Shown: positions 1-55,289 of the stretch, piece by piece
How positions within the stretch are numbered: position 1 is the stretch's first letter
Layout of the letters: each line of letters starts with the position of its first letter
From: an uncultured Alphaproteobacteria bacterium
Lineage (GTDB): Bacteria > Pseudomonadota > Alphaproteobacteria > HIMB59 > GCA-002718135
Reading direction: 5' to 3'
DNA length: 64,000 nt
Assembly (NCBI GenBank): GCA_902580765.1
Contig: CACHLW010000004.1
Span: 19,888-83,887, forward strand
Program-made: the position numbers and the translations under genes
Notes under the pieces: generated by a model
What the model was told of the DNA's origin: nothing
Seen by the model: only the letters and a program-made list of their open reading frames with translations
Database searches by the model: none

Positions 1-720
1 TCCAGATATTCCTCTAGCTCTTGCAGCCATTACATATAGTTTATCATTTTCATCTAGCATTAGTGCTCTAACTGTTTGAAGAGCAAAGGCAGTTGCATTC
101 CAACCTAAAACAAATATTGGAAGCCAAGCTCTACTTAAAAAATCAAATAGTTTTGCTGATGACCAGGGTTCGTTTTCATATTCTTGAGAAAATAAACCTG
201 TCATCGTATCTCCATAGTAAACAGTCATAAAAAGCATAATACAGAGTGCTACTAAAAAATTAGGAAGTGCTATTCCAAGATAACTAATAAATTTAAGCGT
301 ATTATCTAATGATGCATATTTTGTCGTGGCCGATATGATCCCAACTGGTATGGCAATTAAATATGAAAATATTAGTGCAACCAAACATATTGTTAAAGAT
401 AAAGTAAATCTTCCACTTAATAATTCATTAATATTCATTCTTAGAATACAACTATCACCAAAATCTCCATTAAAAACTATATTAGAAACCCATTTGCCGT
501 ATCTATACAAAAAAGGTTTATCTAAACCTAAACGAATTTTTTCTTTTTCTATGTCTTCATAAGTTATTTGTGATCCTTGTGTATTTTTAAATGCTAGATA
601 TCTTTCAGCACAAGTTCCAGGAACTAATTCCATTAATGAAAAAACAATAAAGCATACAAGAAGCAAAGTTATAATTGCAAGTCCTGCTCTTGTGAGAGTA
701 AATTGTATAAAATTAATCAT
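1..720 (-). CDS. ABC transporter permease, DppB/OppB (peptide/nickel) type; C-terminal part runs off the window
   Basis: Own translation from ATG at 720-718 on the minus strand gives MINFIQFTLTRAGLAIITLLLVCFIVFSLMELVPGTCAERYLAFKNTQGSQITYEDIEKEKIRLGLDKPFLYRYGKWVSN..., with no stop in the part I translated. It has a hydrophobic N-terminal TM segment and an LGLDKP motif typical of this permease family. It lies directly downstream of the family-5 binding-protein gene. It is absent from the ORF track because it is open at the window edge. Confidence 0.8.
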   Translation of the reverse strand, partial: MINFIQFTLTRAGLAIITLLLVCFIVFSLMELVPGTCAERYLAFKNTQGSQITYEDIEKEKIRLGLDKPFLYRYGKWVSNIVFNGDFGDSCILRMNINELLSGRFTLSLTICLVALIFSYLIAIPVGIISATTKYASLDNTLKFISYLGIALPNFLVALCIMLFMTVYYGDTMTGLFSQEYENEPWSSAKLFDFLSRAWLPIFVLGWNATAFALQTVRALMLDENDKLYVMAARARGISG

Positions 721-748
721 ATAAAATAATTAGGAGACAAGAATAATT

Positions 749-788
749 AAAAAAAGAAAAGCGGCAATATATAATTGCCGCTTTTTTT
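749..788 (-). terminator. Hairpin plus T-run between the binding-protein gene and the permease gene (intra-operon attenuator or terminator)
   Basis: GCGGCAAT / ATTGCCGC 8-bp stem (761-781), flanked by an A-run on the plus strand, which is a T-run after the stem on the minus strand (TTTTCTTTTTTT). Confidence 0.6.
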
Positions 789-806
789 ATTATTTATTGA
801 GTTAAA

Positions 807-45975: not shown

Positions 45976-47267
45976 TATAGATTGGTATCTTTTTGCATTG
46001 CTGGTGAAGGTATTCCTTTTTCTCCTCCTCCTATATTTGGTGCTATGTTTTTAGCATAGACATCACTTATACTAAGAGGAAGTTTGTTTGGTTTTTCTAT
46101 CCAACCAACAAATGGGGTAATGATAAAGAAGAAACCAAAATAATACAGCAAACCAACTCTTGCGATTAAAAGATATAAACCCTCAGCTGGAAGCATTCCA
46201 ACATAACCTAATACAAAAAAGTTAACGAAAAAACCCATCATAAACCATTTATATATTGGTCTATAATTACAACTTCTAACTTTTGATCTATCAAGCCAAG
46301 GCAGAACAAAGAGAATTACTATCGCCCCAAACATAAGTAGAACTCCTCCTAATTTATCAGGTACTGCTCTTAAAATTGCATAAAAAGGTGCAAGATACCA
46401 GTTTGGAACAATATGAGCTGGAGTCACAAGTGGGTCAGCTGGAATATAGTTATCAACCTCGGCCATAAGGTTTGGTCCAAAGAAAATTACCGCAGAAATC
46501 GCAACACCAAATGCACACATTGCAATCGTATCTTTGATAAGCATATATGGAAAGAAATTTACTGAGTCATTTTTACTTTTAATATCAATTCCATCAGGAT
46601 TGTTTGATCCATGAACGTGAACAGCAGCAACATGCAATCCAACAACACCAAAAATAACAAATGGTAAAACGTAATGAAGAGCAAAGAAACGATTTAAAGT
46701 AGCATTTCCAACATTGTAATCACCAAGAAGCCATGTTTTTAATCCTTCACCAATAATTGGAATAGCACTGAATAAATTAGTTATAACTGTTGCTCCCCAA
46801 TAAGACATTTGTCCCCACGGTAAAGTGTATCCAAGAAAAGAAGTTGCCATCATTAAAAGAAATATGAATACTCCTAAAATCCAATTGAGTTCTCTAGGAT
46901 ATTTATAGGAACCAAAATACATTGCCCTTACAATATGAATGTAAACAATGATGAAGAAAAAGGCTGCACCGTTAGAATGAATATATCGCATTAACCAACC
47001 ATAATTCACATCTCGCATTATTCTTTCAACACTATCAAACGCCATATCAGTGTGTGGTGTGTAATTCATTGCAAGAAAAATTCCGCTTACAATCATTGTA
47101 ACAAGTGTAATTGTTGCTAATGCACCAAAGCTCCAAAAATAATTACAATTCTTAGGCATTGGATAATCACCATATTCTTTTTTGAAATATGAAATTATTG
47201 GTAAACGAAATTCAATCCAGTTTAGGACAGGATTTTTAAATTGATGTACTTTTCTATTTTGATCCAT
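45975..47267 (-). CDS. petB: Cytochrome b (bc1 complex)
   Basis: 430 aa, multi-TM, with conserved heme-ligand histidine contexts (RYIHSNGAAFFF, FALHYVLPF) and PEWY-region equivalents. Confidence 0.95.
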   Translation of the reverse strand: MDQNRKVHQFKNPVLNWIEFRLPIISYFKKEYGDYPMPKNCNYFWSFGALATITLVTMIVSGIFLAMNYTPHTDMAFDSVERIMRDVNYGWLMRYIHSNGAAFFFIIVYIHIVRAMYFGSYKYPRELNWILGVFIFLLMMATSFLGYTLPWGQMSYWGATVITNLFSAIPIIGEGLKTWLLGDYNVGNATLNRFFALHYVLPFVIFGVVGLHVAAVHVHGSNNPDGIDIKSKNDSVNFFPYMLIKDTIAMCAFGVAISAVIFFGPNLMAEVDNYIPADPLVTPAHIVPNWYLAPFYAILRAVPDKLGGVLLMFGAIVILFVLPWLDRSKVRSCNYRPIYKWFMMGFFVNFFVLGYVGMLPAEGLYLLIARVGLLYYFGFFFIITPFVGWIEKPNKLPLSISDVYAKNIAPNIGGGEKGIPSPAMQKDTNL

Positions 47268-47892: not shown

Positions 47893-48339
47893 ATGAGAAT
47901 TGCTCTATTTGAACCTGACATACCACAGAATGCAGGAAACATATTTAGACTAGGTGCCTGTCTAGGAATACCAGTAGATATAATAGAGCCAGCTGGCTTT
48001 GTGATTGATGATAAGAGATTAAAAAGAGCATCAATGGATTACTATGATTATCTAGAATTAAAAAAACATTTAAGTTGGGAAAAATTTTATGAGTGGTCAA
48101 AAGATAACTCATATCGACTCATTCTTCTAACAACGAAAAGTAAAAAAAGTTATTTCGATTATAAATTTCAATCAAATGATATTATTTTATTTGGCAGAGA
48201 AAGTGCAGGAGCACCTGATTTTGTCCATAGCTCTGTCGATGAAAGATTAACAATACCAATGATAAAGGGCCCTAGATCGATTAATCTTAGTAGTTCAGTT
48301 GCTATTGTAGCTGGTGAAATGTTACGTCAATTAGCTTAA
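47893..48339 (+). CDS. trmL: tRNA (cytidine/uridine-2'-O)-methyltransferase TrmL (SpoU family)
   Basis: 148 aa with LFEPDIPQNAGNIFRLGA and the C-terminal SLNLSSSVAIV knot region. Confidence 0.85.
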   Translation: MRIALFEPDIPQNAGNIFRLGACLGIPVDIIEPAGFVIDDKRLKRASMDYYDYLELKKHLSWEKFYEWSKDNSYRLILLTTKSKKSYFDYKFQSNDIILFGRESAGAPDFVHSSVDERLTIPMIKGPRSINLSSSVAIVAGEMLRQLA

Positions 48340-49193
48340 GCTAAGCTTCCCATTTTTCCTTCTTGATAGTCCATCATTGCTTGCTTGATTTCACCTTCAG
48401 AATTAGCCACAAAAGGACCATAACGTGCAACAGGTTCTTTAAGTGGCTTACCTGCTAAAACTAGGTAGGATCCTTTTTCTGATATTGATGTAAGTTGAAT
48501 CTCATCACTTGACTGATCAAAGTAAATCATATCACCTTTATTAGCGATTTTATCTTCCTCGTTAAATTGTAATTGACCATCGATAATATAGATCATAAGA
48601 TTTTGTTCTTTATCAACATTAAACTTTGTCATATCTGGTTTTGAAAATTGAATATCAAATATTGATACAGGTGAATATGTTTGAACTTTGGATTTGGTTC
48701 CATTTATTTCTCCCACAAGAACTTTAATTTCTATATTTGCATTTTCAGATACTGTTGGAATAGTGTTTCTTTTAATATGTTGGTACCAAGGTTTAACTTT
48801 TTTATTTTTTTTTGGAAGGTTAACCCAGATTTGTAAACCTTGCATGATACCACCACTCTTCTTAAATTTTTCTGTTACTAACTCAGAATGGATTAAACCT
48901 GACCCAGTTGTCATCCATTGTACATCACCAGTTTCAATTTCTGCTTGTCCGCCAAATGAGTCTCTATGCTCTACTTCACCACCAAGCATATAAGTAATTG
49001 CCTCAAATCCACAATGAGGATGTGCTGGTACACCAGTTGCACCTCCCGGTTCATAATTAATTGGGCCGAAATGATCAAAAAGAAGAAATGGATCATTTTC
49101 TCTCATTCCGGGGACAGGGAAAGCTCTCGTTACAGGTATCCCGTCACCCTCGAAAGTCTTCATACACTCTTTAATTTCTAATATTTTTCTCAT
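48336..49193 (-). CDS. Pirin family protein
   Basis: 285 aa bicupin with the HPHCGFEAITYML...E metal site. Confidence 0.85.
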   Translation of the reverse strand: MRKILEIKECMKTFEGDGIPVTRAFPVPGMRENDPFLLFDHFGPINYEPGGATGVPAHPHCGFEAITYMLGGEVEHRDSFGGQAEIETGDVQWMTTGSGLIHSELVTEKFKKSGGIMQGLQIWVNLPKKNKKVKPWYQHIKRNTIPTVSENANIEIKVLVGEINGTKSKVQTYSPVSIFDIQFSKPDMTKFNVDKEQNLMIYIIDGQLQFNEEDKIANKGDMIYFDQSSDEIQLTSISEKGSYLVLAGKPLKEPVARYGPFVANSEGEIKQAMMDYQEGKMGSLA

Positions 49194-49227
49194 TTGTATT
49201 TTAAATTATTATAAAAAATATATAGGT

Positions 49228-49317
49228 ATGATTATGAAAAATCAAAACCCAAACCCACCAAAGTGTGGTTGCAGCTGCAGCTGTTGTTGCACTTGTGAAG
49301 GTGGAGATTGCTGTTAA
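49228..49317 (+). CDS. Untracked 29-codon Cys-rich micro-ORF (metallothionein-like peptide candidate)
   Basis: Own translation gives MIMKNQNPNPPKCGCSCSCCCTCEGGDCC, followed by TAA TAA. There are 9 Cys in the last 17 residues. AGG lies 2 nt before the first ATG and 8 nt before the second (49234). It is a locally GC-rich patch inside the largest intergenic gap of the window (49194-49384). Confidence 0.45.
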   Translation: MIMKNQNPNPPKCGCSCSCCCTCEGGDCC

Positions 49318-49384
49318 TAATACATTCTAAATTAAACAAAATTCAGAAATAAATAATTATAATTTAATTTTTTTTAAAATTTTA

Positions 49385-49792
49385 CTATTTAAAATTAATA
49401 ATAATATCTGACTTACTATTTATTGGAGGAAATCTACCAACGATATTAGATCTATATATTTCAGGTCTATGTCTACGTCTCAAAAAACCATCATCAGATT
49501 TGCTATAGGATAATAGCAGTTCCTCTATTGAATCAATATAAGCAGAATTTTCAGGATCTATATCTCCAAACACATAGGTAAAACAATTTTCTGCGGTAAA
49601 GGATACAATACATGAACGTTTACAATTACTCATGCAATTTACACCTCTTAAAGTTACATTTTTTGTATTTTTAAATTTATCAATTAATTTTTGTGCAAGT
49701 TTTTCTCCTGCAAGTTTATTATTATTTTGAGCTTTATTAAGGGTACATGTGAGACAAACAGATAATATTATTTCTTTTTGTTTTTTTGACAT
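49385..49792 (-). CDS. DUF1636-like predicted metal-binding (thioredoxin-like) protein
   Basis: 135 aa with Cys clusters CLTC and CMSNCKRSC. This family often accompanies CobW/COG0523 genes. Confidence 0.5.
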   Translation of the reverse strand: MSKKQKEIILSVCLTCTLNKAQNNNKLAGEKLAQKLIDKFKNTKNVTLRGVNCMSNCKRSCIVSFTAENCFTYVFGDIDPENSAYIDSIEELLLSYSKSDDGFLRRRHRPEIYRSNIVGRFPPINSKSDIIINFK

Positions 49793-49813
49793 TTTTATTC
49801 TAAATTTAATAAT

Positions 49814-50068
49814 CTAATGGGTGTGGTTTGTTAGATTATTAATATCTGACTCCTCTATTTCTTCTATTGATTTTGCAACTCGCCAATTTTTCATTGATCC
49901 GTCTTCATTTCTTGCAGTAATTACAGTTTCGATTGGTGGACAATCAGGCTCATGACAACTGAGCTCAGCAATACTTATTATAGTATTTTCTCGTAATTTA
50001 TATTTCTTGGAAATTAAATGTTTAAGATTTCTTATTTTTTCAACATTTTGAGTTTTACGATTAAACAT
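49814..50068 (-). CDS. Hypothetical small protein (84 aa) with a CHEPDC motif
   Basis: ORF tightly packed between the WD40 and DUF1636-like genes. I recognise no family. Confidence 0.5.
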   Translation of the reverse strand: MFNRKTQNVEKIRNLKHLISKKYKLRENTIISIAELSCHEPDCPPIETVITARNEDGSMKNWRVAKSIEEIEESDINNLTNHTH

Positions 50069-50078
50069 ATTTTCTCCT

Positions 50079-51116
50079 TTAATTGTCTGCCCATAAAGAT
50101 GATAAAAGAATAGAACCTTTCATATCCCCAATTAATATTTGTGAATTATCACTAGATATCGCTATTGTTGAAACTTCCGAACCTGTTGAACTTCTAATCA
50201 TAATTGGTTTTTTACTTTCATCAATTTCTGCTAATAAAACTGACCCATCTGTAAAACCGGTGAAAACAGCTTTTTCTCCATTTAGTGCTTTAACAAATGT
50301 TGCAAGTTCTTTACCACAGTTTGCAACAACAATTGGCTTTCTCCCCATTGGTCCTTCTTTACCATCAAATGGCCAGCAAACTGCATCACTGGATCCAGAT
50401 GTTACCAAATACGGTGTATCACCAACCCAAGTAAAACTTTTAATTTTTGATGGATAACCTCTCATTGCTAAATCAGCTTTGTCGTTTATGCGCCAACCAT
50501 GAATTTGATTTTCTTGCATTGCAGTTACAATATATTTTGTATCTGGGCTAAACGTTACAGTTCCATGCGATCCTTTCCAGGTAAAGTTTGATGCTGTCCA
50601 TTTATTATTATTAAGTTTCCACACTGTTACTCCACCGTATCTTGAGACCGCAAGACGCTTACCTTTATTATCAAATGCTAATCCAGCAACAGTACTTTGA
50701 TGCTCTAAAGTTTGTGGTTTATCTTTGTTTTTTGTCCAAATATAAACAGTCTTTCCTGATGAACAAACTTTAGTATCTTTGTGGGAAGCTACACAGTCAA
50801 CCCACTTTGAGCCAAAATTAAAAATTTCTTCAATATTTCCATCAGATGATATTTTTAGAAAACGTCCATCATCTCCTCCCGTTAACACATGATCTTCATA
50901 ATTTGTCATACTCAACACTACACCCTTATGTGCTTTAACAGTTTTAGGATCAGATCCAGATTGAAAAAACCTTACAGTGCCGTCTCCAAATCCTACTGCT
51001 ATTTGATCACGAATTGTAACCGCTTCTGTAGCTGGGGCTCCAATATTAAAAATTGAACCTCTTCTTTCAAGTTCAGTTTTATTTGATTCTTGAAGTTTTT
51101 CTAAATCAGCGTTCAT
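50079..51116 (-). CDS. WD40/beta-propeller repeat protein
   Basis: 345 aa with about 7 repeats of the type GDGTVRFF, GGDDGRFLKI, GKTVYIW, YGGVTVWKL, ENQIHGWRI, SSDAVCWPF, TDGSVLLAEI. Its start overlaps the COG0523 gene stop by 4 nt. Confidence 0.75.
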   Translation of the reverse strand: MNADLEKLQESNKTELERRGSIFNIGAPATEAVTIRDQIAVGFGDGTVRFFQSGSDPKTVKAHKGVVLSMTNYEDHVLTGGDDGRFLKISSDGNIEEIFNFGSKWVDCVASHKDTKVCSSGKTVYIWTKNKDKPQTLEHQSTVAGLAFDNKGKRLAVSRYGGVTVWKLNNNKWTASNFTWKGSHGTVTFSPDTKYIVTAMQENQIHGWRINDKADLAMRGYPSKIKSFTWVGDTPYLVTSGSSDAVCWPFDGKEGPMGRKPIVVANCGKELATFVKALNGEKAVFTGFTDGSVLLAEIDESKKPIMIRSSTGSEVSTIAISSDNSQILIGDMKGSILLSSLWADN

Positions 51117-52084
51117 GCTGATTTACAATTTTCAAAGCCTTCCTTGAGATTCATATTATCAAGATCACGACCAATAAAAACTACTCGAGAACTTCTATCT
51201 TTTCCTTTAGGCCAAGGTCCCATTGGAGAAGCATCCATAAGCATATGCACTCCTTGAAATACATATCGCTCTTCTTCACCTTTAAAGTTCAAAATTCCTT
51301 TTGATCGAAGAATATCCTGACCCTTAGTCCTCAGTAAATTTCCAAACCAATCTTGAAACTTATCCATATCTAATGGTGTATCAGATACAAAGGATAGACT
51401 AGTAACATCATCATCATGTTCATGATCATGATCTGATTCAAGAAAGTCAGGTTCAATATCTAATACTCTATCTAGACTAAATGCATTTAAGCCTACGATT
51501 TCATCAAGAGGTGCATCACAACGTGTTGTTTTGATAATCTTTGCAAAAGGGTTAATTTTTCTAATACGATCATTAACTTTCACAATGTCATTATCTTCGA
51601 CAAGTTCAACTTTATTTAGTAAAATTACATCAGCAAAAGCAATTTGTTCTTCTGCTTCATGATGATCCACTAATTGAGAACTTAGATGAACAGCATCGGC
51701 AACTGTAACAATTGCATCTAATTTTGTACGATCAGCAACATCTTGATCAACAAAAAATGTCTGAGCAACTGGTGCTGGATCAGCTAAACCAGTTGTTTCA
51801 ACTATAATTGCATCTAGTTTATCAGCACGTTTCATTAAACCACTTAGAATTCTGATTAAATCACCTCTAACAGTGCAACAAATGCACCCGTTGTTCATTT
51901 CAAATACTTCTTCATCAGCATCAACGACAAGGTCATTATCAATTCCCTGCTCACCAAATTCATTTACAATGACAGCATATTTCCGTCCATGCTGTTCAGT
52001 TAAAATTCGATTTAAAAGTGTTGTTTTTCCAGCTCCAAGAAACCCTGTTAAAACCGTAACTGGAACCTGAGAAGTATTTTCCAT
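51113..52084 (-). CDS. COG0523-family metallochaperone GTPase (CobW/ZigA/YeiR-like)
   Basis: P-loop GFLGAGKTTLLNRIL, metal motif GCICCT, His/Asp-rich linker ESDHDHEHDDD, CobW C-terminal domain. Confidence 0.9.
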   Translation of the reverse strand: MENTSQVPVTVLTGFLGAGKTTLLNRILTEQHGRKYAVIVNEFGEQGIDNDLVVDADEEVFEMNNGCICCTVRGDLIRILSGLMKRADKLDAIIVETTGLADPAPVAQTFFVDQDVADRTKLDAIVTVADAVHLSSQLVDHHEAEEQIAFADVILLNKVELVEDNDIVKVNDRIRKINPFAKIIKTTRCDAPLDEIVGLNAFSLDRVLDIEPDFLESDHDHEHDDDVTSLSFVSDTPLDMDKFQDWFGNLLRTKGQDILRSKGILNFKGEEERYVFQGVHMLMDASPMGPWPKGKDRSSRVVFIGRDLDNMNLKEGFENCKSA

Positions 52085-52108
52085 ATCAATTTCCTTATAA
52101 TTAGTTCT

Positions 52109-52141
52109 ATAAATTCCACCTTAATAAAAGGTGGAATTTAT
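52109..52141 (-). terminator. 14-bp perfect hairpin between znuA and the COG0523 gene (terminator, attenuator or RNA stabiliser)
   Basis: ATAAATTCCACCTT-AATAA-AAGGTGGAATTTAT. There is no clear T-run after it on the minus strand. Confidence 0.4.
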
Positions 52142-52155
52142 TTAAATATTAAAAA

Positions 52156-53238
52156 TTAACAGCCTTTAAGCTCGTCCCCGAGATTACTAATCAACGTAAA
52201 GTAAAGTGACTTACCAGCGTCGATGTTAGCACCTAAAGGATCAAAAACTCCTGTTTTGATATTCATATCCTCAGCTATTGTTGTAATAATCTTTGGATTA
52301 AATTGAGGTTCAGAGAAAATACATTTTATTCCCTTATCCTTAATAACATCCTGAATATCAGCTATTTGCTTTGCACCAGGTAAAACATCAGTATTCAATG
52401 TTAAAGCTCCTGCAGCTCTTACACCAAATCTTTCTTCAAAGTATTGGTATGCGTCATGGAAAACGACAAATTTTGCATCGGAATTAATATCCTTGCTAAC
52501 GTCATTTATCAATTGGTCTAAAGCTTTGATTGTTGCATCAGCATTTGCTTCATATTTCTCTTTATTTGCAGGATCTAAATCACCTAACTCATGAGCAATC
52601 TCATGAACCATTTCTTTAGCATTCATTGGATCTAACCAAATGTGAGCATCAAATTCACCATGTGCATGACCGTGGTGATCGTGTCCACTGTGATCGTCGT
52701 GGTCATCGTGATCGTCATGATCGTCATGGTCATCGTGATCGTCATGATCGTCATGGTCATCATGGTCATCGTGGTCATCGTGATCGTCATGATCGTCATG
52801 ATCGTCATGGTTATCATGGTCATCGTGGTCATCGTGATCGTCATGATCATCGTGGTCACCAAATATAGATTCTTCTCTAAATTTTAATTTAGCAATTGTT
52901 TCAACTTCCATAAACTCTACGACTTCAGCACTTTTTGCTATTGACTCCAGAGGTTCTTCTAATGATGTCTCAATACTCTCCCCAATCCAAAATACTATAT
53001 CTGCTTCTTCAAGCATTTTTGCGTGAGATGGTTTCATTGTAAAACTATGTGGAGATATGCTTCCATCAATTATAAGTCCAGGTTCACCAATTCCATTCAT
53101 AACATTAGCAATCAATGAATGAAGTGGTTTAATAGTCGTTACAACTTTTATTTCTGCTCTAGCAGATGCAGTTGCAACAAGAATTCCTGAAAACAAGATA
53201 ATTTTAAAAACATGTAGAAAAATATTCATTTGTTTCAT
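52156..53238 (-). CDS. znuA: Zinc ABC transporter periplasmic binding protein with an extended His/Asp-rich loop
   Basis: Signal peptide, cluster-9 SBP fold segments (VVTTIKPLHSL, HIWLDP, FHDAYQYF), a His-rich insert, and a position divergent from znuCB. Confidence 0.9.
   Translation of the reverse strand: MKQMNIFLHVFKIILFSGILVATASARAEIKVVTTIKPLHSLIANVMNGIGEPGLIIDGSISPHSFTMKPSHAKMLEEADIVFWIGESIETSLEEPLESIAKSAEVVEFMEVETIAKLKFREESIFGDHDDHDDHDDHDDHDNHDDHDDHDDHDDHDDHDDHDDHDDHDDHDDHDDHDDHDDHSGHDHHGHAHGEFDAHIWLDPMNAKEMVHEIAHELGDLDPANKEKYEANADATIKALDQLINDVSKDINSDAKFVVFHDAYQYFEERFGVRAAGALTLNTDVLPGAKQIADIQDVIKDKGIKCIFSEPQFNPKIITTIAEDMNIKTGVFDPLGANIDAGKSLYFTLISNLGDELKGC
52693..52854 (-). repeat. In-frame tandem 9-bp repeat encoding 18 consecutive His-Asp-Asp/Asn triplets inside znuA
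   Basis: Codon-by-codon reading gives 17 x HDD and 1 x HDN, using mixed CAT/CAC and GAT/GAC codons. A 27-nt super-unit CATGACGAT-CATGACGAT-CACGATGAC occurs twice in tandem. Confidence 0.9.
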
Positions 53239-53278: not shown

Positions 53279-53297
53279 AATGTTATAATATAACATT
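53279..53297. promoter_or_regulatory. Zur box (perfect 19-bp palindrome AATGTTATAATATAACATT)
   Basis: It lies in the 78-bp znuA/znuC divergent intergenic region, 41 nt from the znuA ATG and 20 nt from the znuC ATG. It matches the core of the published gammaproteobacterial Zur consensus GAAATGTTATAWTATAACATTTC (from memory). Confidence 0.85.
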
Positions 53298-54862: not shown

Positions 54863-54884
54863 AAACTATTTGTTAATTAAAATT

Positions 54885-55289
54885 ATGGCATTAGCATCAG
54901 AAAATTTAACCAAAAACCAGAAAACAGTTCTTGATATTTTAGAAAACTCGTCTGAGCCTCTTAAAGCATATACAATCCTTTTTGATATTCAAAAAAAAGG
55001 AATTAAATCTCCTCTTCAAGTTTATAGAGCTTTAGATAAGCTTATAGAAATTGGGAAAGTACATAAAATAGAGAGTAGAAATTCATATGTTGCTTGTAAG
55101 CATGAAGGCTGTAATGCAAAAACTTCTACATCTTTTTTGATATGTGAAAACTGTGATAGTGTTACTGAGCTAACTGGAAATAATTTGTTTTCTTATTTTT
55201 CAAAACAAGCAGAAAAAAATAACTTCAATTATAAAAAACATAATTTAGAAATATTTGGTTTGTGCGAAAATTGTAAACTAAAAAACTAA
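54885..55289 (+). CDS. zur: Fur-family zinc uptake regulator
   Basis: Winged-helix N-domain, then Cys pairs (CKHEGC, CENC, CENCK). It lies adjacent to znuB. I prefer the ATG at 54885 over the tracked TTG at 54870. Confidence 0.8.
   Translation: MALASENLTKNQKTVLDILENSSEPLKAYTILFDIQKKGIKSPLQVYRALDKLIEIGKVHKIESRNSYVACKHEGCNAKTSTSFLICENCDSVTELTGNNLFSYFSKQAEKNNFNYKKHNLEIFGLCENCKLKN

What the first reader, a model, noticed from the sequence alone, without database searches (positions are those of the whole stretch)
49228..49317. Untracked 29-codon Cys-rich micro-ORF (9 Cys) in the largest intergenic gap, next to the Zur-controlled metal cluster
- **Location:** the 191-bp gap between the pirin gene and the DUF1636-like gene is exceptional for this genome.
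- **The ORF:** it contains ATG ATT ATG ... encoding MIMKNQNPNPPKCGCSCSCCCTCEGGDCC and terminated by TAA TAA.
- **Metallothionein resemblance:** the CxCxCxCCCxC...CC pattern looks like a miniature metallothionein or metal-thiolate cluster peptide. It lies at the distal end of the znuA / COG0523 / WD40 / DUF1636 operon.
- **Local composition:** the patch is locally GC-rich in otherwise very AT-rich spacer DNA, which suggests selection. Known bacterial metallothioneins (SmtA/BmtA, MymT) are about twice as long, so this would be a new, very small class.
- **Alternatives:** a Cys-rich RiPP precursor; a Cys-codon leader peptide; or a non-coding element. The stretch contains the 12-nt perfect palindrome CAGCTGCAGCTG at 49272-49283, and it overlaps the expected pirin promoter/5' leader.
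Basis: partly seen in the sequence, partly recalled or inferred. Interest (0 to 1): 0.75.

Follow-up and report, generated by a model that had tools for sequence, protein, structure and literature searches.

The report
Tiny cysteine-rich peptide gene in SAR11
An unannotated 27-codon gene for a peptide that is one-third cysteine sits at the end of the zinc-uptake gene cluster of the abundant ocean bacterium SAR11 and is kept intact by selection; it is most likely a miniature metal-binding (metallothionein-like) peptide that no database lists.

Summary
The ORF is real and it codes for protein. The true start is almost certainly the second ATG (49234), giving 27 aa: MKNQNPNPPKCGCSCSCCCTCEGGDCC.

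- **Conservation:** of 36 independent Pelagibacteraceae loci that carry it, 35 are intact. One has a 1-nt deletion in a G-run. One further locus is scrambled and one close relative lacks the ORF.
- **Selection:** pN/pS is 0.09 in this frame, with pS up to about 0.8. Every other frame has stops or a higher pN/pS. The flanks are only 55-60% identical. The 12-nt palindrome is not conserved.
- **Position:** the gene always lies tail-to-tail with the last gene of the znuA-led operon, whether that gene is DUF1636, orf84 or znuA itself. It does so at two chromosomal sites, next to pirin or next to MurJ.
- **Regulation:** a Zur box lies between znuA and znuC. None lies near the micro-ORF.
- **Database searches:** Pfam, NCBIfam, PDB, Rfam and HMMER against 1.84 billion proteins found nothing but over-extended calls of this ORF. 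I found no literature on it.

Best reading: a cytosolic single-cluster metal-thiolate peptide (9 Cys, no His, no aromatic residues), probably for Zn. Metal binding is inferred, not shown. It resembles a metallothionein in composition only and is not a homologue of any known family.

The parts
49234..49317 (+). Micro-ORF proper: 27 codons plus a TAA stop (a second TAA follows at 49318-49320). Product MKNQNPNPPKCGCSCSCCCTCEGGDCC. Proposed metal-thiolate (metallothionein-like) peptide.
   Evidence: The sequence is shown. It is intact in 35 of 36 independent loci. pN/pS is 0.09 in this frame only, and variable sites by codon position are 6/8/20. There are no Pfam, NCBIfam or PDB hits.
49228..49233 (+). 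It is probably 5' UTR or spacer, not coding.
   Evidence: The codon at 49228 is ATA, GTG, ATT, GAA, AAG or ATC in L008, L010, L015, L016/L158, L156 and L161.
49224..49227 (+). AGGT, a Shine-Dalgarno-like element ending about 7 nt before the ATG at 49234. It is conserved only in pirin-context loci.
   Evidence: Seen directly in the alignments. It is absent in MurJ-context loci, so the evidence is weak.
49194..49227 (+). A 34-nt spacer between the divergent pirin start (49193) and the micro-ORF region. It should hold overlapping divergent promoters: TTGTAT at 49194-49199 and TATATA at 49219-49224 on the + strand, and a promoter-like TTGATT-17-TATATT on the - strand spanning 49245 to 49217.
Evidence: These are consensus matches only, and the count of such matches is no higher than in shuffled sequence.
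49318..49384 (.). An AT-rich (8% GC) spacer between the convergent stop codons of the micro-ORF and DUF1636. It has a weak AT-only inverted repeat (AAATTAAA at 49329-49336 and TTTAATTT at 49363-49370) followed by a T-run. It may act as a bidirectional terminator.
   Evidence: The fold is not significant in the window. In short-operon relatives such as L163, the last codons plus the stop form a strong hairpin followed by UUUU (-20.7 kcal/mol, z = -2.6).
49385..53238 (-). The convergent operon whose end the micro-ORF always abuts: znuA (52156-53238), COG0523 GTPase (51113-52084), WD40 (50079-51116), orf84 (49814-50068) and DUF1636 (49385-49792).
   Evidence: Pfam and NCBIfam assignments are.
53279..53297 (.). 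Zur box AATGTTATA-A-TATAACATT in the znuA/znuC divergent promoter region. It is the only such site in the window.
   Evidence: It is conserved with 0-3 mismatches in every locus that covers that region. The Fur-family (Zur) gene is at 54870-55289.

Best explanation
49234-49317 is a stand-alone, monocistronic gene for a 27-residue cytosolic peptide. I propose that its nine cysteine thiolates fold around a single metal-thiolate cluster. The arithmetic fits M(II)3Cys9, as in the beta-domain of vertebrate metallothionein and the Zn3Cys9His cluster of Pseudomonas metallothionein, or alternatively several Cu(I) ions.

Because it is inherited as one block with znuABC-zur, I propose that it buffers or banks zinc taken up by ZnuABC in SAR11.

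**Shown:** the ORF is coding; the whole peptide is under strong purifying selection; it keeps a constant tail-to-tail position at the end of the Zur-box-controlled znuA operon in three operon architectures and at two chromosomal sites; it has no same-strand downstream gene and no maturase nearby.

**Inferred:** metal binding, the identity of the metal, and cytosolic location (there is no signal peptide).

**Speculative:** convergent transcription from the derepressed znuA operon lowers expression of the peptide when zinc is scarce.
For: **Coding.**
- 21 unique DNA versions give pN/pS 0.09 with no stop in this frame. The five other frames carry stops and/or have pN/pS of 0.2-5.8.
- For the window against L020 there are 9 synonymous and 2 non-synonymous changes (Fisher p = 1.4e-7).
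- Flanks are 55-60% identical while the CDS is 79-91% identical.
- Eight of the eleven core codons 11-21 vary only synonymously, apart from single-sequence variants.

**A functional peptide rather than a run of Cys codons.** N5, N7, P9, K10, G12, S14 and G23 are also invariant across the 15 unique coding sequences compared, and P6, P8, S16 and E22 change in only one sequence each.

**Linkage to zinc uptake.**
- The ORF is always convergent with the operon's last gene: DUF1636 (window, L001-L021), orf84 (L169, L170, L173, L174, L176) or znuA (L155-L157, L161, L163).
- Its upstream neighbour is pirin or MurJ.
- A Zur box and a zur gene are present in the cluster.

**Independent transcription unit.** The ORF is divergent from its upstream neighbour. 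In short-operon loci its 3' end forms a hairpin followed by UUUU.

**Metallothionein-like composition.** It has 9 Cys in 27 residues (33%, against 1.0% in the window's long ORFs), four CxC and three CC motifs, and no His or aromatic residues. AlphaFold gives no fold without metal (pLDDT 52).

**Precedent.** A marine oligotroph couples znuABC and a metallothionein through Zur (PMC9337993). A Zn3Cys9His cluster is known in a bacterial metallothionein (PMC7387436). znuA is the one high-affinity metal uptake system SAR11 has kept (PMC4771312).
Against: - There is no experimental or omics evidence of transcription, translation or metal binding.
- There is no homology to any known metallothionein, so the functional call rests on composition and neighbourhood.
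- No Zur box lies near the ORF; the best match has 5-7 mismatches, which equals background.
- The gene is dispensable. L162, with the same MurJ-znuA context, lacks it. More distant SAR11-like znuA loci (L164-L167) lack it. L158 has a frameshift and L177 is scrambled.
- Single sequences lose one Cys (C11F in L016, C27Y in L159).
- The two chromosomal contexts could reflect co-inheritance of an island rather than functional coupling.
- A peptide that is 33% Cys is costly in an organism said to depend on reduced sulfur (my own background knowledge). That could equally point to a sulfur- or redox-related role.
Confidence: 0.55

Rival explanations
1. The peptide is a thiol-rich peptide with a non-zinc role. 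It could sequester Cu(I) or Cd (as MymT and fungal Cu-thioneins do), act as a small Fe-S or redox buffer peptide, or store cysteine/sulfur. Its link to the znu island would then be only historical.
For: The same composition evidence applies. No Zur box lies at the ORF. Runs such as CCC and a C-terminal CC are typical of Cu(I) thioneins (my own knowledge, not tested). The gene is present or absent among close relatives, like an accessory stress gene.
Against: It keeps a constant position at the end of the znuA operon through three operon architectures and two chromosomal sites. No copper, cadmium or Fe-S assembly genes lie in the neighbourhood.
Confidence: 0.2
2. The ORF is a cysteine-responsive regulatory sORF, like the mycobacterial polycysteine leaderless sORFs. 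Ribosome progress through the Cys codons would decide whether the hairpin overlapping the stop codon terminates transcription. That would tune antisense read-through into the convergent znuA operon.
For: Polycysteine sORF attenuators are known (Canestrari et al. 2020, cited in PMC9094748). In short-operon loci the last six codons plus the stop form the 5' arm of a strong hairpin followed by UUUU. A -10-like hexamer lies close to the ATG, which is weak evidence.
Against: No same-strand gene lies downstream in any architecture. The window-type loci have no significant hairpin. Non-Cys residues are conserved as strictly as the Cys residues, which an attenuator does not need.
Confidence: 0.07
3. 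The ORF is the precursor of a ribosomally made, post-translationally modified peptide, for example a thioether-, thiazole- or bufferin-type metal chelator. The modifying enzymes would be encoded elsewhere.
For: It has a Cys/Ser/Thr-rich core behind a conserved N-terminal NPNPPK stretch. Cys-containing RiPPs that chelate copper exist (bufferins; abstract of PMC12452194, listed).
Against: No radical-SAM, MNIO/DUF692, YcaO, lanthipeptide or transporter genes were found in the DNA recovered around it (up to several kb per side) in any of the contexts. No NCBIfam precursor family matches. The would-be leader is only 10 residues. SAR11 genomes are streamlined (my own knowledge).
Confidence: 0.06
4. 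The ORF makes no functional product. The conserved block would then be a DNA or RNA element (the palindrome, the pirin leader or promoter, or a terminator), or a chance ORF.
For: The palindrome CAGCTGCAGCTG is present. A - strand promoter-like match overlaps the first codons. Off-frame Cys-rich ORFs do arise by chance in this genome.
Against: Substitutions concentrate at third codon positions and destroy the palindrome. Folding z-scores are -0.9 and -0.04. There is no Rfam hit. The ORF is kept without pirin. The antisense frame has pN/pS of 5.8.
Confidence: 0.03

Closest known systems
Bacterial metallothioneins of the SmtA/BmtA type (Pfam Metallothio_Pro), including Pseudomonas PflQ2 MT
   Same: Both are small cytosolic Cys-rich metal-buffer proteins. 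Both use nine Cys for one cluster (Zn3Cys9His in PflQ2 MT; PMC7387436). In marine Synechococcus the metallothionein belongs to the same Zur circuit as znuABC (PMC9337993).
   Different: There is no sequence similarity (no Pfam or PDB hit at E <= 10). The SAR11 peptide has no His ligands and is about half as long as the roughly 50-80 aa of these proteins (a length recalled from my own knowledge, not checked here). No zinc-finger-like fold is predicted. It has no adjacent SmtB-type repressor and no Zur box of its own.
Beta-domain of vertebrate metallothionein and the 25-26-residue fungal Cu-thioneins (Neurospora/Agaricus type)
   Same: Size and cysteine arithmetic agree: about 25-30 residues, 7-9 Cys in CxC or CC motifs, one metal-thiolate cluster, and no aromatic residues. 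This comparison is from my own knowledge.
   Different: Those proteins are eukaryotic and no homology is detectable. The PDB search, whose library should include solved metallothioneins (I did not check which), found nothing. The SAR11 peptide has a CxCxCxCCCxC block plus a terminal CC and a Pro/Asn-rich N-terminus, which those lack.
Mycobacterial polycysteine leaderless sORF attenuators (Canestrari et al. 2020)
   Same: Both are very short, unannotated, Cys-codon-rich ORFs missed by gene callers. In some SAR11 loci a terminator-like hairpin is involved.
   Different: The mycobacterial sORFs sit upstream of, and on the same strand as, the operon they control, and only their Cys codons matter. 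Here the next gene is convergent and the whole peptide is conserved.
MymT (Mycobacterium tuberculosis copper metallothionein)
   Same: Both are lineage-restricted small bacterial Cys-rich peptides that were overlooked by annotation. MymT acts in metal detoxification (PMC7387436).
   Different: MymT is 53 aa (my own knowledge), and it is described as crucial for copper detoxification (PMC7387436). The full HMMER scan found no relative outside the SAR11 family.

Membership tests
Metallothionein (operational class) | Low molecular mass (below 10 kDa) | tested here: met
   27 residues, about 2.8 kDa.
Metallothionein (operational class) | High Cys content arranged in CxC, CC or CxxC motifs | tested here: met
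   9 of 27 residues are Cys (33%), arranged as CGCSCSCCCTC...CC. The window's long ORFs have 1.0% Cys.
Metallothionein (operational class) | Few or no aromatic residues | tested here: met
   No F, Y, W or H in the consensus. The exceptions are single variants, C11F in L016 and C27Y in L159.
Metallothionein (operational class) | Binds several metal ions in thiolate clusters | not testable with these tools
   This needs metal titration, ESI-MS, and UV, CD or NMR on the peptide.
SmtA/BmtA family (Pfam Metallothio_Pro) | Sequence match to the family profile | tested here: not met
   No Pfam family at E <= 10 for three peptide variants. No NCBIfam hit. No PDB chain at E <= 10.
SmtA/BmtA family (Pfam Metallothio_Pro) | His ligands and a zinc-finger-like fold | tested here: not met
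   The peptide has no His. AlphaFold gives no secondary structure, with pLDDT 52.
Zur regulon member | A Zur box in its own promoter region | tested here: not met
   The best match within -250 to +120 has 5-7 mismatches out of 19, which equals background. The znuA/znuC box has 0-3 mismatches in every locus.
Polycysteine sORF attenuator | Lies upstream of, and on the same strand as, the regulated genes | tested here: not met
   The downstream gene is convergent in all architectures.
Polycysteine sORF attenuator | Only the Cys codons are constrained | tested here: not met
   Most non-Cys positions are invariant or nearly so. pN/pS is 0.09 over the whole ORF.
RiPP precursor (ranthipeptide/SCIFF, bufferin, lanthipeptide, thiopeptide) | A maturase or exporter encoded next to the precursor | tested here: not met
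   Neighbours are pirin or MurJ, znuABC-zur, COG0523, WD40, orf84, DUF1636 and housekeeping genes.
RiPP precursor (ranthipeptide/SCIFF, bufferin, lanthipeptide, thiopeptide) | Match to a curated precursor family | tested here: not met
   No NCBIfam or Pfam hit.
Structured non-coding RNA or cis-regulatory element | Conserved structure or an Rfam match | tested here: not met
   Only chance-level Rfam matches (E of 2.8 or more, 11-15 bits, far below the gathering scores); the single one touching the ORF (Xist_exon1, 49239-49265) scores 11 bits against a gathering score of 50. Folding z-scores are -0.87 and -0.04. The palindrome is lost through synonymous changes.

The most novel reading that the evidence does not exclude
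SAR11 carries a previously unseen, minimal (27-aa, Cys9, single-cluster) metallothionein that serves as the cell's zinc bank and partners ZnuABC. It has no Zur box of its own. Its expression would be set inversely to zinc uptake by convergent transcription from the Zur-derepressed znuA operon. A single Zur site would then give both 'uptake on' and 'storage off', a streamlined equivalent of the Zur-activated bmtA circuit of marine Synechococcus.
Probability: 0.25. Interest if true: 0.8.

Novelty: new variant of a known kind. Interest (0 to 1): 0.66.

Why it matters
SAR11 is among the most abundant organisms in the surface ocean, and znuA is the one high-affinity trace-metal uptake system it has kept (PMC4771312). 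A hidden metal-thiolate peptide attached to that system would be a missing piece of how these cells hold zinc, and possibly cadmium or copper, at picomolar supply. That bears on bacterial Zn and Cd quotas in ocean biogeochemistry.

It would also be, to my knowledge, the smallest bacterial metallothionein-type peptide, and a sequence family with no known relatives.

It shows what length cut-offs in gene callers hide. In a 5.8-billion-protein database the family appears only as a handful of wrongly 5'-extended calls. The peptide is short enough to synthesise, so the central claim can be tested cheaply.

Tried and rejected
1. **Metagenome scan, wasted.** My pattern TGYGGNTGYNNNTGYNNNTGYTGYTGYNNNTGY let NNN match TGY, so it returned 120 (TGY)n microsatellite loci (L035-L154) and no SAR11 peptide. 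That used the single metagenome-contig scan. I recovered diversity through the look-up of encoding contigs instead.
2. The 29-mer is below the 40-aa minimum. A tandem two-variant query worked.
3. **Viral contigs.** A specific pattern gave 0 hits.
4. **Pfam, NCBIfam and PDB on the peptide.** All gave nothing.
5. **Rfam at permissive E-values.** Only chance-level matches.
6. **AlphaFold2.** Uninformative (pLDDT 52), as expected for a peptide that would fold only around metal.
7. **A Zur box at the ORF.** None found.
8. **A shared promoter motif across the pirin and MurJ contexts.** Only AT-rich -10-like hexamers appear, at inconsistent distances, so I make no claim.
9. **Literature.** Searches for the motif, for SAR11/Pelagibacter plus metallothionein, and for Cys-rich small proteins returned nothing relevant.
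10. **More distant loci.** DUF1636 loci L022-L034 and znuA loci L164-L167 have no analogous Cys-rich micro-ORF.

Full report
**1. What is in the sequence**

- The window holds an ORF at 49228-49317 (+). It translates to MIMKNQNPNPPKCGCSCSCCCTCEGGDCC and ends TAA TAA.
- It lies in a 191-nt gap (49194-49384) between pirin (48336-49193, -) and a DUF1636 gene (49385-49792, -).
- Beyond DUF1636, all on the - strand, come:
  - an 84-codon ORF with no family match;
  - a WD40 propeller;
  - a COG0523/CobW-type GTPase;
  - ZnuA.
- ZnuC, ZnuB and a Fur-family (Zur) gene are transcribed divergently from ZnuA.
- A perfect 9-1-9 palindrome, AATGTTATAATATAACATT, lies between znuA and znuC at 53279-53297. 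It is the only such site in the window.
- Proteins of the window fall in 90%-identity clusters whose named members are labelled 'Pelagibacteraceae bacterium'. The organism is therefore SAR11.
- The ORF is 46% GC. The window is 30% GC and the rest of the gap is 8% GC.
  - The gap is the third largest ORF-free stretch, not the largest.
  - Cys density alone is not exceptional. An off-frame stretch of the cytochrome b gene reaches 8-9 Cys per 25 codons.
  - The start codon is probably 49234, as section 2 explains.

**2. Is it a gene?**

I fetched related loci in four ways:
- through the neighbouring DUF1636 protein;
- through the few database proteins that contain the peptide;
- through ZnuA homologues;
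- through the exact COG0523 protein.

The tally is as follows.
- Thirty-six independent loci carry the core, and 35 of them are intact.
- L158 has a 1-nt deletion in a G-run that shifts the last two Cys codons.
- L177 is a scramble of micro-ORF and DUF1636 fragments. It is either a pseudogene or a long-read assembly artefact.
- L162 has the same MurJ-znuA context but lacks the ORF.

The 21 distinct DNA versions give the following.
- pN/pS is 0.09 with no stop in the proposed frame.
- Each of the five other frames has stops and/or a pN/pS of 0.2-5.8.
- Variable sites by codon position number 6, 8 and 20 (p = 0.006).
- Against the most distant carriers, pS reaches 0.7-0.8 while pN stays at 0.03-0.09.
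- The 60-nt flanks fall to 55-60% identity.

Two further points come from the alignments.
- The 12-nt palindrome is eroded by synonymous changes, to TAGTTGTAGCTG and TAGCTGTAGCTG.
- The ATG at 49228 is ATA, GTG, ATT, GAA, AAG or ATC in relatives, whereas the ATG at 49234 never varies. The product is therefore the 27-mer MKNQNPNPPKCGCSCSCCCTCEGGDCC.

Non-Cys positions (N5, N7, P9, K10, G12, S14, G23) are as invariant as the cysteines.

RNA folding over the ORF is unremarkable on both strands (z = -0.87 and -0.04). Rfam finds only chance-level matches in the region.

I conclude with high confidence (about 0.93) that this is a protein-coding gene under purifying selection on the peptide.

**3. 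Why annotation misses it**

- Eighty-four nucleotides is below the usual gene-caller minimum.
- In the 5.8-billion-protein collection the family appears only as nine 5'-over-extended or frameshifted calls.
- A full HMMER pass over 1.84 billion representatives found eight of those same proteins and nothing else.
- Pfam, NCBIfam and PDB gave no hit at E <= 10.
- Literature searches for the motif, and for SAR11/Pelagibacter with metallothionein, found nothing relevant.

**4. Context**

The ORF is always monocistronic. It is divergent from its upstream neighbour and tail-to-tail with the last gene of the znuA-led operon. That last gene differs between loci:
- DUF1636 in the window and L001-L021;
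- orf84 in L169, L170, L173, L174 and L176;
- znuA itself in L155-L157, L161 and L163.

The whole block occupies two chromosomal sites, beside pirin or beside MurJ.

- The ORF therefore travels with znuABC-zur. It does not travel with pirin, and it does not depend on COG0523, WD40 or DUF1636.
- The Zur box is conserved at znuA/znuC in every locus that covers it. Nothing better than background lies near the micro-ORF.
- In short-operon loci the last six codons plus the stop form a strong hairpin followed by UUUU (-20.7 kcal/mol, z = -2.6). That fits a dedicated terminator. It may also explain the D25G (GAT to GGG) change seen there.
- The window-type spacer has only a weak AT hairpin.

**5. What it most likely does**

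- The peptide is 33% Cys, against 1.0% in the window's long ORFs.
- Its cysteines lie in CxC and CC motifs. It has no His, no aromatic residue and no hydrophobic segment.
- AlphaFold predicts no fold.
- These are the sequence hallmarks of a metallothionein.
- Nine thiolates are what one M(II)3Cys9 cluster needs. The vertebrate beta-domain is the example from my own knowledge, and Zn3Cys9His in Pseudomonas metallothionein is documented (PMC7387436).
- Given the fixed association with the zinc-uptake island, the best-supported reading is a minimal cytosolic zinc-buffering or zinc-storage peptide.
- There is a marine precedent. Synechococcus WH8102 couples znuABC repression and metallothionein activation through one Zur (PMC9337993).
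- Hogle et al. showed that znuA is SAR11's notable retained metal uptake trait (PMC4771312).

The status of each step is this.
- **Shown:** coding, selection and synteny.
- **Inferred:** metal binding, the choice of metal and the cytosolic location.
- **Speculative:** convergent transcription from the derepressed znuA operon down-regulates the peptide under zinc scarcity.

**6. Rivals**

- **A non-zinc thiol peptide (Cu, Cd, Fe-S or redox).** This cannot be separated from the main reading by sequence alone. I give it 0.2.
- **A Cys-responsive sORF attenuator of the mycobacterial type (PMC9094748).** It fails on geometry because there is no same-strand downstream gene. It also fails on whole-peptide conservation. 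I give it 0.07.
- **A RiPP precursor.** No maturase, exporter or curated precursor match appears in any context. I give it 0.06.
- **A non-coding element or chance ORF.** The frame-specific selection pattern essentially excludes it. I give it 0.03.

**7. Novelty and verdict**

- This is not a member of any known metallothionein sequence family, because the profile and PDB tests were not met.
- It does fit the operational class. I therefore rate it a new variant of a known kind.
- It would be an unannotated, lineage-restricted, accessory, very small bacterial metallothionein-like peptide.
- It is interesting because of the organism, the link to ocean zinc cycling and the ease of testing it.
- The main weakness is that there are no expression or metal-binding data.
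- One search was wasted. The single metagenome scan went on a badly designed pattern.

Noticed in passing
window 52156-53238 (-), residues about 127-195 of ZnuA: ZnuA carries a long (HDD)n His/Asp-rich loop. ZnuA homologues in otherwise near-identical operons range from 313 to 511 aa, which suggests a length polymorphism in this repeat loop.
   Followed up: partly
window 49385-49792 (-); L168:6772-7067: DUF1636 is present or absent among near-identical operons; 7 of the 10 loci lack it. L168 keeps a remnant of the DUF1636 3' end, bracketed by a second copy of the 3' half of the micro-ORF. That looks like a recombination scar.
   Followed up: partly
L177:6781-6986: Pieces of the micro-ORF are interleaved with pieces of the DUF1636 3' end. 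This is either a scrambled pseudogene or a long-read/Pilon assembly artefact from mixed strains.
   Followed up: no
window 49814-50068 (-): An 84-aa ORF (MFNRK...SCHEPDCPP...NHTH) has no Pfam or NCBIfam match. It is nevertheless conserved next to COG0523 and WD40, even in more distant low-GC relatives L022-L024, one of them labelled SAR116.
   Followed up: partly
window 53279-53297: A perfect Zur-type palindrome, AATGTTATA-A-TATAACATT, lies between znuA and znuC. It is conserved with 0-3 mismatches in every related locus that covers the region, and it is the only such site in 64 kb.
   Followed up: yes
window 46594-46719 (-), inside the cytochrome b gene but out of frame: A chance off-frame ORF has 8 Cys in 25 codons (9 in some relatives). 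This is a caution that Cys-rich frames arise from codon bias in this genome.
   Followed up: yes
L162:7170-7200 and L163:6800-6830: An ATTAGGT-N7/8-ACCTAAT inverted repeat lies between MurJ and the znu island. It is present whether or not the micro-ORF is there, and its regulator is unknown.
   Followed up: no
window 563-806: This is the largest ORF-free stretch in the window (244 nt). I did not examine it.
   Followed up: no
P0004 (ENA contig of 1079 nt): This database protein fuses the N-terminus of orf84 to the frame upstream of the micro-ORF. It is probably a chimeric assembly joined at a short LIS microhomology.
   Followed up: no
window 49234-49314: The micro-ORF uses C-ending codons in 8 of its 15 two-fold pyrimidine-ending codons, against 18% in the window's long ORFs (p = 0.002). 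This could reflect translational selection, but relatives use more TGT.
   Followed up: partly
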